Virus record (IMG/VR): IMGVR_UViG_2529293240_000016
DNA: 15,032 nt
Strand: one strand, 5' to 3'
DNA from: a virus
Taxonomy: Duplodnaviria; Heunggongvirae; Uroviricota; Caudoviricetes
Shown: piece by piece, positions 10,192 through 10,478 of the stretch
Numbering within the stretch: position 1 is the stretch's first letter
Layout of the letters: each line of letters starts with the position of its first letter
Program-made: the position numbers and the translations under genes
The notes under the pieces: model-generated
The model's database searches: none
Told to the model about the DNA's origin: nothing
Seen by the model: only the letters and a program-made list of their open reading frames with translations

Positions 10192-10357
10192 GCGGGAACA
10201 AAACCGCCTTATCCGTGGACTTATAAGGCAGCGTGACGCATGGAAGACACAGGAAACAGGGCATAAAGATAAAGCGTCAGGACGCGCAGAACGCATCACA
10301 GCGAAGCGATTAACCGACCGTGACCGCGAGGTTATGGAATGTTTCCGCAATCGCTGA
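10184..10357 (+). CDS. Possible small basic protein (57 aa)
   Basis: ATG overlapping the HNH stop; Arg-rich (LIRGLIRQRDAWK...); no convincing SD; could be spurious if this interval is packaging-site DNA. Confidence 0.3.
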   Translation: MNEREQNRLIRGLIRQRDAWKTQETGHKDKASGRAERITAKRLTDRDREVMECFRNR

Positions 10358-10478
10358 TGAGGCTGTATGACGGGGTGGGGGCGTTTTCAGGACAAACCCG
10401 ACCCCGCCGGGCACCGAACGCCTCCCCAAATTTTTATGCACGGGAATTTTTTGAAAAATAATCTGACGAAAAATAAGC
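10358..10478. promoter_or_regulatory. Candidate cos / packaging site between HNH and terS
   Basis: GC-rich blocks (GGGGTGGGGGCG, GACCCCGCCGGGC, CGCCTCCCC) next to an AT-rich stretch, at the position where HK97-like phages place cos. Confidence 0.3.

What the first reader, a model, noticed from the sequence alone, without database searches (positions are those of the whole stretch)
10192..10478. HNH-terS intergenic region as candidate cos site
HNH directly upstream of terS/terL is typical of HK97-like cos packaging, where cos lies between the HNH gene and terS. The 287-bp interval has GC-rich blocks beside AT-rich sequence. A satellite with its own terS/terL/HNH and cos would package independently of helper terminase.
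Basis: inference. Interest (0 to 1): 0.4.

Follow-up and report, generated by a model that had tools for sequence, protein, structure and literature searches.

The report
Packaging (cos) site of phage satellite
The stretch between the HNH nuclease gene and the small-terminase gene of this capsid-forming phage satellite almost certainly holds its DNA-packaging (cos) site, of the ordinary HK97/SfV kind; but more than half of the interval is a small gene, and this copy of the island is crippled.

Summary
The window is a capsid-forming PICI (cf-PICI) next to phoQ, with the gene order capsid, protease, portal, connectors, HNH, terS, terL. The flagged 287 bp are not all intergenic. A conserved 57-aa gene (phrog_3173) fills 10184-10357, which leaves a 121-bp gap (10358-10478).

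That gap holds a ~92-bp non-coding element (10370-10461) with three parts: a G-run block, a variable spacer of fixed length, and a C-rich block followed by an A/T tract. The conserved blocks are 61-100% identical from E. coli to Pasteurellaceae and Aeromonas. Synonymous sites in terS are only 35-58% identical.

The element is significantly similar to the HNH-terS gap of Salmonella phage ST64B, whose TerS and TerL are homologous. The 10-nt cohesive end of that phage's relative SfI (TGCCCGCCCC) was mapped experimentally. The layout also matches HK97 cos in geometry.

Two assemblies made from phage-lysate DNA of Klebsiella cf-PICIs break exactly in this gap.

Predicted cohesive end: 10415-10424 (CGAACGCCTC).

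No RNA structure, promoter or terminator explains the conservation.

This copy is degenerate: IS1 sits in the primase gene and terL has a 19-nt frameshifting deletion. It is a known kind of site in a known satellite family, so interest is low to moderate.

The parts
9751..10191 (+). HNH endonuclease gene (146 aa), packaging accessory nuclease
   Evidence: PF01844 E 1.8e-8, phrog_144 E 8e-45; same position as HK97 gp74 and ST64B Sb56
10184..10357 (+). Small conserved protein gene (57 aa; RefSeq start 10175) that overlaps the HNH stop; function unknown. It fills most of the 'intergenic' interval.
   Evidence: phrog_3173, full length, E 6e-37; annotated WP_000174068.1 in strain N32; protein-level conservation in many Enterobacterales; absent in Pasteurellaceae, Aeromonas and C. 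amalonaticus islands
10370..10397 (+). Upstream conserved block: G-run GGGGTGGGGG (10372-10381) plus GTTTTCAGGACAAA. Proposed upstream cos subsite; role inferred (termination/second-nick or HNH/TerL positioning).
   Evidence: Four G invariant in 35 diverse islands; 61-100% identity to distant islands; a G-rich block at about -56..-41 from the nick in the window (predicted end) and in HK97, ST64B and SfIV (known or inferred ends); the only such G-run in the window
10398..10411 (+). Variable spacer of constant length between the two conserved blocks
   Evidence: 33-67% identity (neutral level) and no indels in 35 islands
10412..10430 (+). C-rich core CACCGAACGCCTCCCCAAA = candidate cosN. Predicted 10-nt cohesive end 10415-10424 (CGAACGCCTC; family consensus CGCCCGCCCC).
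   Evidence: Invariant ACC at 10413-10415; aligns to ST64B GGAC[TGCCCGCCCC]CTCGAATTTTTA (nhmmer E 0.0011); SfI cohesive end TGCCCGCCCC mapped on virion DNA (PMC3636060); same offsets as the HK97 end. Exact nicks are inferred, not shown.
10431..10461 (+). TTTTTATGCACGGG + AATTTTTT + GAAAAATAA: GC step followed by an A/T tract at +21..+28 from the predicted nick. Candidate TerS-binding (cosB-like) site.
   Evidence: T runs invariant; the HK97 TerS minimal site is +15..+29, with the C:G pair at 21 and the A-tract essential (PMC11331095); equivalent A/T tract at +21..+31 in HK97, ST64B and SfIV, and at +22..+29 in the Klebsiella island, measured there from the predicted end. Binding is inferred.
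10479..10835 (+). terS, P27-family small terminase (118 aa)
   Evidence: PF05119 E 1.3e-23; 37% identical to ST64B Sb1, E 5e-21
10819..12461 (+). terL, HK97-type large terminase, disrupted in this copy by a 19-nt deletion near 12140 (ORFs 10819-12234 and 12126-12461)
   Evidence: Nuclease domain split between two ORFs; 19-nt gap versus the intact 553-aa gene of strain N32; the deletion is absent from all 532 complete E. coli genomes that carry the region and present in two other assemblies. Intact TerL is 31% identical to ST64B Sb2 (E 2e-82) and 27% to HK97 gp2 (E 6e-48).

Best explanation
The non-coding 10370-10461 segment is the cos site of a capsid-forming PICI, of the HNH-assisted HK97/SfV type.

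Proposed mechanism:
- The island's replicated concatemer is recognised by its own TerS at the GC-step/A-tract just downstream of the core (about 10439-10461).
- TerL, helped by the HNH protein, makes two nicks 10 nt apart in the C-rich core. The predicted cohesive end is 10415-10424, CGAACGCCTC, and a 3' extension is assumed by analogy with HK97.
- DNA is then packaged rightwards (terS first) into the island-encoded small capsids until the next cos.
- The G-run block about 45-55 bp upstream is a third conserved subsite. Its role is not known. I propose it serves the terminal cut or positions HNH/TerL.

Shown: the anatomy, conservation, similarity and geometry of the element, and the contig breaks in related islands.

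Inferred: the exact nick positions, the polarity of the overhang, TerS binding to the A-tract, and the role of the G block.

In this particular copy terL is frameshifted and the primase is IS1-disrupted, so the site could at best be used in trans.
For: 1. Context. The gene order is capsid, protease, portal, head closure, connector, HNH, small ORF, terS, terL. This is the cf-PICI packaging module described in 10.1101/2022.09.08.507074.

2. Selection on non-coding DNA. A gap-free alignment of 35 islands from Enterobacterales, Aeromonas and Pasteurellaceae has 21 invariant columns. The blocks are 61-100% identical, against 35-58% at synonymous third positions of terS; the spacer is at the neutral level. 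There is one copy per island.

3. Homology to phage cos regions. A profile of 76 unique elements hits the HNH-terS gap of ST64B (E 0.0011) and of Acinetobacter phage AbIPP1 (E 0.0015). ST64B TerS and TerL are homologous. The aligned core contains the SfI cohesive end TGCCCGCCCC, which was mapped on virion DNA.

4. Geometry shared with the mapped HK97 ends and with the ends of ST64B and SfIV inferred from SfI: G-rich block at -56..-41, 'AC' immediately 5' of the overhang, A/T tract at +21..+31, terS ATG at about +50..+61. The HK97 TerS site is +15..+29.

5. Packaged DNA of relatives.
- vB_KppS-Ant (LR881103) was sequenced from a lysate with Nextera XT and SPAdes. It is 100% identical to the K. 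pneumoniae ATCC 13883 island on both sides but lacks exactly 69 nt of this gap.
- The cf-PICI part of PQ569648 stops at both edges of the gap.
- Packaged KpCIDSM30104 DNA is reported to form concatemers, attributed to cohesive cos ends.
Against: There is no end-mapping for this island or any E. coli cf-PICI in the searchable literature.

HK97 and PhiS63 are not detected by the sequence profile, and pairwise alignment to HK97 is not significant. The HK97 likeness is therefore geometric, not demonstrable homology.

The window's own predicted overhang matches TGCCCGCCCC at only 6 of 10 positions.

Contig breaks could in principle come from poor coverage of G-runs or T-runs rather than from physical ends, and PQ569648 is a chimeric record.

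An alternative register (nick after AAA, 10430/10431) was not excluded by sequence alone.
Confidence: 0.85

Rival explanations
1. The conserved element is a transcriptional or translational control region for terS-terL (promoter, terminator/antiterminator, or structured 5' leader RNA), not the packaging site.
For: It lies immediately upstream of terS. G-run/C-run inverted repeats (I2, I3) followed by a T run superficially recall a terminator.
Against: No plus-strand promoter-like or terminator-like site was found and there is no Rfam match. The consensus fold is -1.8 kcal/mol with 0 compensatory pairs in 35 sequences. The single-sequence fold z-score is -0.7. In several Pasteurellaceae islands the element lies more than 100 nt from the terS start codon, with unrelated sequence in between. 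The core matches a mapped cohesive end.
Confidence: 0.05
2. The element is a recognition site only (a TerS-binding or pac-like site), and DNA is cut elsewhere or by a headful mechanism.
For: The exact nicks are not mapped here. P27-family TerS proteins occur in many phages whose packaging mode has not been studied.
Against: TerL is of the HK97/ST64B cos type, with the HNH partner adjacent. Cohesive ends are reported for packaged KpCIDSM30104 DNA. Two lysate-derived assemblies break at this gap rather than being circularly permuted. The core aligns to the SfI cohesive end.
Confidence: 0.06
3. The GC/AT pattern is a chance compositional feature of a short spacer.
For: None beyond the small size of the gap.
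Against: The composite motif has 0 matches in 200 shuffles. The G-run is unique in the window. Conservation across three orders is well above synonymous-site identity.
Confidence: 0.01

Closest known systems
cos site of the SfV/SfI/SfIV/ST64B group of temperate enterobacterial phages (10-nt cohesive end 5'-TGCCCGCCCC-3', mapped for SfI; PMC3636060)
   Same: It lies between an HNH gene and terS. TerS is homologous (37%) and TerL is homologous (31%). The core GGAC[TGCCCGCCCC]CTCGAATTTTTA aligns to the cf-PICI consensus GCAC[CGCCCGCCCC]CTCAAATTTTTA (profile E 0.0011). It has a G-rich block about 45-55 bp upstream and a GC-step/A-tract at about +21.
   Different: The window's own core is more diverged (CGAACGCCTC). 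The flanks outside the core are not alignable. The host element is a 15-kb satellite without tail or lysis genes, not a 40-kb phage. The satellite has an extra small gene (phrog_3173) between HNH and cos.
HK97 cos (10-nt 3' overhang; TerS gp1 site at +15..+29; gp74 HNH-stimulated cleavage; PMC11331095, PMC9410871)
   Same: Same gene context. TerL is homologous (27%, E 6e-48). The geometry is nearly identical: G9 run at -51..-43, 'AC' before the overhang, C-rich overhang, GC step plus A-tract at +21..+31, terS ATG at +50.
   Different: TerS is unrelated by sequence (different Pfam/PHROG families). There is no significant DNA similarity by profile or pairwise alignment. It works like HK97 cos, but homology is not demonstrated.
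cf-PICIs EcCIEDL933 and KpCIDSM30104 (10.1101/2022.09.08.507074; 10.1101/2025.02.11.637232)
   Same: Same module order and the same conserved gap element: the EDL933-like fragment OR845787 is 71% identical, and the Klebsiella island L087 also carries it. Exclusive self-packaging and cohesive ends are reported for these islands.
   Different: I found no text in those papers that gives the position or sequence of cos. The window's island is a different lineage and is degenerate (IS1 in the primase, terL frameshift).
Lambda-type cos (cosQ-cosN-cosB, 12-nt 5' overhang) and the lambda-like cos of classical E. coli PICIs such as EcCICFT073 (Rpp-redirected)
   Same: The logic is tripartite: an upstream element, a nicking core, and a downstream TerS-binding region next to the terS gene.
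   Different: The terminase families differ and an HNH partner is present. The expected overhang is 10 nt and 3', not 12 nt and 5'. There are no repeated R-type sites between the core and terS. The satellite uses its own terminase and does not hijack the helper's.

Membership tests
HK97/SfV-type (HNH-assisted) cos site | Lies between the HNH endonuclease gene and terS, at the head of the terS-terL genes | tested here: met
   HNH 9751-10191, element 10370-10461, terS 10479. The arrangement is the same in HK97, ST64B, SfIV and AbIPP1.
HK97/SfV-type (HNH-assisted) cos site | Cognate large terminase of the HK97 family | tested here: met
   PF03354+PF20441. The intact relative is 27% identical to HK97 gp2 (E 6e-48) and 31% to ST64B Sb2 (E 2e-82). 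In the window itself the gene is frameshifted.
HK97/SfV-type (HNH-assisted) cos site | Cognate small terminase related to that of a phage with a mapped cos | tested here: met
   37% identity to ST64B Sb1, E 5e-21. Not met for HK97 gp1 (no similarity).
HK97/SfV-type (HNH-assisted) cos site | Sequence similarity of the core to an experimentally mapped cohesive end | tested here: met
   The cf-PICI profile hits the ST64B gap at E 0.0011 and the aligned core contains TGCCCGCCCC. That 10-mer is the SfI cohesive end. The window's own 10-mer matches 6 of 10 positions; the family consensus matches 9 of 10.
HK97/SfV-type (HNH-assisted) cos site | Subsite geometry: upstream G-rich block, nick core, GC-step/A-tract TerS site at about +15..+30 | tested here: met
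   Offsets computed for the window, the Klebsiella island, HK97, ST64B and SfIV. HK97 TerS site from PMC11331095.
HK97/SfV-type (HNH-assisted) cos site | Packaged DNA has unique ends with a ~10-nt single-stranded extension at this position | not testable with these tools
   Indirect evidence only. The Ant contig lacks 69 nt of the gap. The cf-PICI part of PQ569648 lacks the whole gap. Cohesive ends are reported for KpCIDSM30104.
HK97/SfV-type (HNH-assisted) cos site | Cleavage depends on TerS, TerL and HNH | not testable with these tools
   Needs in vitro cleavage assays or mutants.
Capsid-forming PICI (cf-PICI) | Own capsid, protease, portal, head-tail connectors, HNH, terS and terL, in the proteobacterial order | tested here: met
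   Pfam hits for each gene in the published order.
Capsid-forming PICI (cf-PICI) | Integrase, regulation and primase/replication module; size 10-18 kb; no tail or lysis module | tested here: inconclusive
   A D5-type primase is present but split by IS1. The integrase lies outside the window; it is present in the N32 relative. Only small ORFs lie between terL and phoQ. Absence of tail and lysis genes was not searched exhaustively.
Capsid-forming PICI (cf-PICI) | Induced by a helper phage and packaged in its own small capsids | not testable with these tools
   Experimental. This copy is probably defective.
Lambda-type cos | Repeated TerS-binding R sites between cosN and the terS gene | tested here: not met
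   No repeated R-type motif between the core and terS. The one direct repeat has its second copy inside terS, and there are three weak inverted repeats. The terminase families also differ.
Structured RNA leader or intrinsic terminator | Conserved base-paired structure with covariation, or a stem followed by a U-run | tested here: not met

The most novel reading that the evidence does not exclude
The ~92-bp tripartite cos element is close to a universal packaging signal of proteobacterial cf-PICIs: near-identical blocks in Enterobacterales, Aeromonas and Pasteurellaceae, with a neutral fixed-length spacer. If so, different cf-PICIs, and defective copies such as this one (terL and primase dead, cos intact), could be cross-packaged in trans by any co-resident intact island.

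In addition, the G-run block about 45-55 bp upstream of the nick is shared with HK97, SfV-like phages and AbIPP1. I found no description of it in the HK97 papers read here. It may be a previously uncharacterised cos subsite of all HNH-assisted terminases, for example the HNH docking site or the terminal-nick signal.
Probability: 0.3. Interest if true: 0.45.

Novelty: new member of a known kind. Interest (0 to 1): 0.3.

Why it matters
cf-PICIs spread widely because they package themselves and borrow only tails. The cis-acting site that defines what is packaged has not, as far as the searchable literature shows, been pinned to a sequence.

A precise, testable prediction (cohesive end 10415-10424, TerS site at the A-tract, upstream G block) would:
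- allow design of cos plasmids and cos mutants;
- show which defective islands can still be mobilised in trans;
- improve the annotation of satellite ends in viromes.

It does not change concepts. The site is where the HK97 paradigm says it should be and looks like known relatives.

Tried and rejected
1. Pairwise local alignment of the gap with the circularised HK97 junction was not better than shuffles.

2. The nhmmer profile of the cf-PICI element found no hit at the cos junction of the rotated HK97 or PhiS63 genomes. I therefore claim only geometric likeness to HK97.

3. I looked for virome contigs that end inside the element, using an IMG/VR pattern scan. Matches near locus ends were storage cuts or arbitrary, so this was not informative.

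4. PQ569648 first looked uninformative but became useful once its record end was read.

5. MF417951, a virome clone close to Ant, is not in the phage collection.

6. An RNA explanation was rejected: Rfam, consensus fold and single-sequence fold.

7. A promoter or terminator was rejected.

8. An alternative nick register after AAA (10430/10431), suggested by eye from the HK97 '...CCAAA|G' end, is set aside. The register 10415-10424 is given by the ST64B/SfI alignment and by the spacing to both flanking landmarks.

9. The direct repeat CACCGAACGCC/CACCGAAAGCC (10412 and 10489) was considered as a second terminase site. The second copy encodes the PPKAP stretch of TerS and is not kept in Pasteurellaceae, so it is probably coincidental.

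Full report
**What the window is.**
ORF listing and Pfam scans show, on the + strand:
- major capsid (6093-7298),
- prohead protease (7338-7910),
- portal (7912-9123),
- head-closure protein (9078-9458),
- head-tail connector (9455-9751),
- HNH endonuclease (9751-10191),
- P27-family small terminase (10479-10835),
- HK97-type large terminase (from 10819).

On the - strand, 13572-15032 corresponds to the chromosomal gene annotated phoQ in a near-identical E. coli locus, strain N32. There the island is bounded by an integrase on the other side. The module order is the one published for proteobacterial capsid-forming PICIs (10.1101/2022.09.08.507074). The HNH-terS-terL region occurs in 515 of 5426 complete E. 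coli genomes, always on the chromosome.

**Checking the observation.**
The coordinates 10192-10478 are exactly the distance from the HNH stop to the terS start, but the interval is not all intergenic. An ORF at 10184-10357 (57 aa; RefSeq starts it at 10175) overlaps the HNH stop.
- It matches phrog_3173 from end to end (E 6e-37).
- It is annotated in RefSeq relatives.
- Its protein sequence is conserved, with an M-x-E N-terminus and an RDRE-x-x-E-x-FRNR C-terminus, across many Enterobacterales genera.
- Islands of Pasteurellaceae, Aeromonas and Citrobacter amalonaticus lack it, so it is accessory.

The true gap is 10358-10478 (121 bp). GGGGTGGGGG (10372-10381) is the only window of at least 9/10 G or C in the 15 kb. 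It is followed by a C-rich block and AT-rich runs. A composite motif of these blocks matches once in the window and never in 200 shuffles.

**Conservation.**
I collected the region from 80 IMG/VR loci and 39 loci of different species, and found the element in essentially all of them. It occurs once per island.

A 35-sequence alignment (Enterobacterales, Aeromonas, Pasteurellaceae) has almost no indels, and those are mainly at the G-run. It has 21 invariant and 23 nearly invariant columns. These fall into two blocks:
- block 1: GGGTGGGGG-N3-TTT-N-A;
- block 2: ACC-N-CCGCC-N-CC-N-CAAATTTTTA-N-GCA-N-GG-N2-ATTTTTT-N-GAAAATAA.

The blocks are separated by a ~15-nt spacer of free sequence and fixed length.

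Against K. pneumoniae, Aeromonas, Pectobacterium, Serratia and Pasteurella islands:
- the two blocks are 61-100% and 73-78% identical;
- third codon positions of conserved terS codons are 35-58% identical;
- the spacer is 33-67% identical.

In several Pasteurellaceae the element sits more than 100 nt from the terS start codon, so it is not merely a ribosome-binding region.

**Alternatives that fail.**
- No plus-strand promoter-like or terminator-like site.
- No Rfam match at E <= 1.
- The consensus fold is -1.8 kcal/mol with no compensatory pair.
- The single-sequence fold is no better than shuffles (z = -0.7).

Conservation of primary sequence with rigid spacing and a free spacer is what a composite protein-binding DNA site looks like.

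**Link to mapped cos sites.**
The profile built from 76 unique elements hits two phages:
- Acinetobacter phage AbIPP1 (TerS 38% identical), exactly in its HNH/small-ORF to terS gap (E 0.0015);
- Salmonella phage ST64B, in its HNH-terS gap (E 0.0011 for an 80-kb search space).

ST64B TerS is 37% identical to the window's (E 5e-21). Its TerL is 31% identical to the intact relative's TerL (E 2e-82).

The aligned ST64B/SfIV sequence is GGAC-TGCCCGCCCC-CTCGAATTTTTATACCCGCGAAAAATG. For the closely related phage SfI, run-off sequencing of virion DNA against the prophage showed a missing 10-mer, 5'-TGCCCGCCCC-3', taken as the cohesive end (PMC3636060). SfIV is reported to have an identical cos (PMC3851460).

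Transferred through the alignment, the cohesive end of the cf-PICI consensus is CGCCCGCCCC. That of the window is CGAACGCCTC, 10415-10424, preceded by the invariant AC (10413-10414).

**Likeness to HK97.**
The HK97 record ends ...GGGCAGGGGGGGGGATCAAATCTTCAAAACCTTTGCCCCAAATGAC-CGCCGCCAAA and starts GTTTGAATTTAACGCTAACCCGATTTTTTTAG, with terS at 50. Its numbering agrees with the published cos numbering: T16, C:G at 21, A:T at 24-29. HK97 has a 10-nt 3' overhang, a minimal TerS site at +15..+29, and cleavage stimulated by the HNH protein gp74.

Measured from the overhang, which is mapped for HK97, taken from SfI for ST64B/SfIV, and predicted for the two islands:

| Element | G-rich block | A/T tract | terS ATG |
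|---|---|---|---|
| HK97 | -56..-41 | +23..+31 | +50 |
| ST64B, SfIV | -54/-56..-41 | +21..+26 | +51 |
| Klebsiella island | -55..-41 | +22..+29 | +61 |
| window | -54..-42 | +21..+28 | +55 |

In all of them 'AC' precedes the overhang. However, neither the profile nor pairwise alignment detects HK97, and HK97 TerS is unrelated in sequence. So the HK97 likeness is functional and geometric, not demonstrated homology.

A weak inverted repeat, TTTTCA (10384-10389) and TGAAAA (10452-10457), is centred at 10420.5, within 1 nt of the centre of the predicted overhang.

**Packaged DNA of relatives.**
- 'Escherichia phage vB_KppS-Ant' (LR881103, 16.5 kb) is a linear assembly from a lysate grown on K. 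pneumoniae DSM 30104, made with Nextera XT and SPAdes (PMC8006926).
  - It is 100% identical to the island of K. pneumoniae ATCC 13883 on both sides. It stops at ...GGTTTTCAGGAC and restarts at ACGAAAAGG, and so lacks 69 nt (L087 2410-2478).
  - The predicted cohesive end (L087 2431-2440) lies inside this hole, about 21-31 nt from one contig end and 38-48 nt from the other. Tagmentation of a linear molecule would be expected to lose ends in this way (inference).
- A second record, Klebsiella phage P12620-1 (PQ569648, a chimeric 106.5-kb assembly), carries a different cf-PICI, 88-89% identical. Its sequence runs from terS codon 2 to the last codons of the small ORF, where the record ends. The whole gap is again missing.
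- The same Klebsiella island, KpCIDSM30104, is reported to give packaged DNA that renatures into concatemers, attributed to the cohesive ends of its cos sites (10.1101/2025.02.11.637232).

**State of this copy.**
- An IS1 (2817-3584, with a 9-bp target duplication) splits the D5-type primase gene.
- terL has a 19-nt deletion near 12140 that splits the nuclease domain.
- None of 532 complete E. coli genomes with this region has the deletion. Two other assemblies do: AFOW01000015.1, 100% identical over 3357 nt, and CP100042.1. It is therefore a real allele and not a sequencing error.
- The cos element itself is intact, with a 5-G rather than 6-G second half of the G-run.
- In Shigella flexneri SFBU1023 the homologous island has lost the core and the first seven terS codons through a deletion between CCCCGCC repeats.

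**Verdict.**

It is an ordinary HK97/SfV-type cos in a known satellite family. The papers I could search do not give its position or sequence, so the detailed anatomy is a modest addition.

The statement about independent packaging is already published for the family and probably does not apply to this degenerate copy.

Still unknown: the nick positions, the overhang polarity, TerS binding at the A-tract, and the role of the G block. All are inferences that end-mapping and cos-plasmid experiments would settle.

Noticed in passing
window 10819-12461 (deletion near 12140): terL is a pseudogene: a 19-nt deletion splits the nuclease domain into two ORFs. The deletion is absent from all 532 complete E. 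coli genomes with this region. It is present in AFOW01000015.1 (100% identical over 3357 nt) and CP100042.1, so it is a real allele.
   Followed up: yes
window 2817-3584: An IS1 (768 bp, transposase on the - strand, 9-bp target duplication) is inserted in the island's D5-type primase gene (1918-2838 + 3571-4443). Together with the terL deletion, this suggests a decaying island in an IS1-rich (Shigella-like?) genome.
   Followed up: partly
window 10184-10357: A small conserved gene of unknown function (phrog_3173, 57 aa; conserved C-terminus RDRE-x-x-E-x-FRNR) lies between HNH and cos in Enterobacterales cf-PICIs. Pasteurellaceae, Aeromonas and C. amalonaticus islands lack it. AbIPP1 also has an unannotated-function small gene in this position. 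It is possibly a packaging accessory protein.
   Followed up: partly
window 10372-10381 and homologues: The G-run is the only indel-prone part of the element: 5 to 8 G after the T in different E. coli islands, and 5 versus 6 G between two otherwise identical assemblies. This is either homopolymer slippage or sequencing error, and it would shift the G block relative to the core by 1-3 bp.
   Followed up: no
L086 (Shigella flexneri SFBU1023) about 2459-2507: The homologous island has a deletion from the spacer of the cos element into terS codon 8, between two CCCCGCC repeats. It removes the cos core and the terS start.
   Followed up: partly
L002 (LR881103, vB_KppS-Ant), whole record: This GenBank 'Escherichia phage' was described in its paper as a filamentous ssDNA prophage. 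It is in fact the Klebsiella cf-PICI of strain DSM 30104/ATCC 13883 (100% identical). It carries a 2.3-kb gene after terL annotated as 'tape measure protein', which the window's island lacks.
   Followed up: partly
L004/L248 (PQ569648, Klebsiella phage P12620-1) 90644-106503: This 'complete genome' of 106.5 kb is chimeric. Its last ~15.9 kb are a cf-PICI joined at terS codon 2 to unrelated phage sequence.
   Followed up: partly
window 10412-10422 and 10489-10499: The direct repeat CACCGAACGCC / CACCGAAAGCC has one copy in the cos core and one in terS codons 4-7. A similar echo (ACCGCCCGC) exists in the Klebsiella island. It is probably a by-product of the PPKxP codons but was not excluded as a second terminase site.
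   Followed up: no
L107-L114, L124 (Pasteurellaceae bacterium Macca): One genome carries at least nine terS-bearing loci of this family. In most of them extra palindromic, REP-like sequence lies between the cos element and terS.
   Followed up: no
window 10384-10389 / 10452-10457: The inverted hexamers TTTTCA / TGAAAA flank the core symmetrically, centred at 10420.5, which is within 1 nt of the centre of the predicted 10-nt overhang. Related A/T-rich motifs occupy both positions in other islands, without clear covariation.
   Followed up: partly
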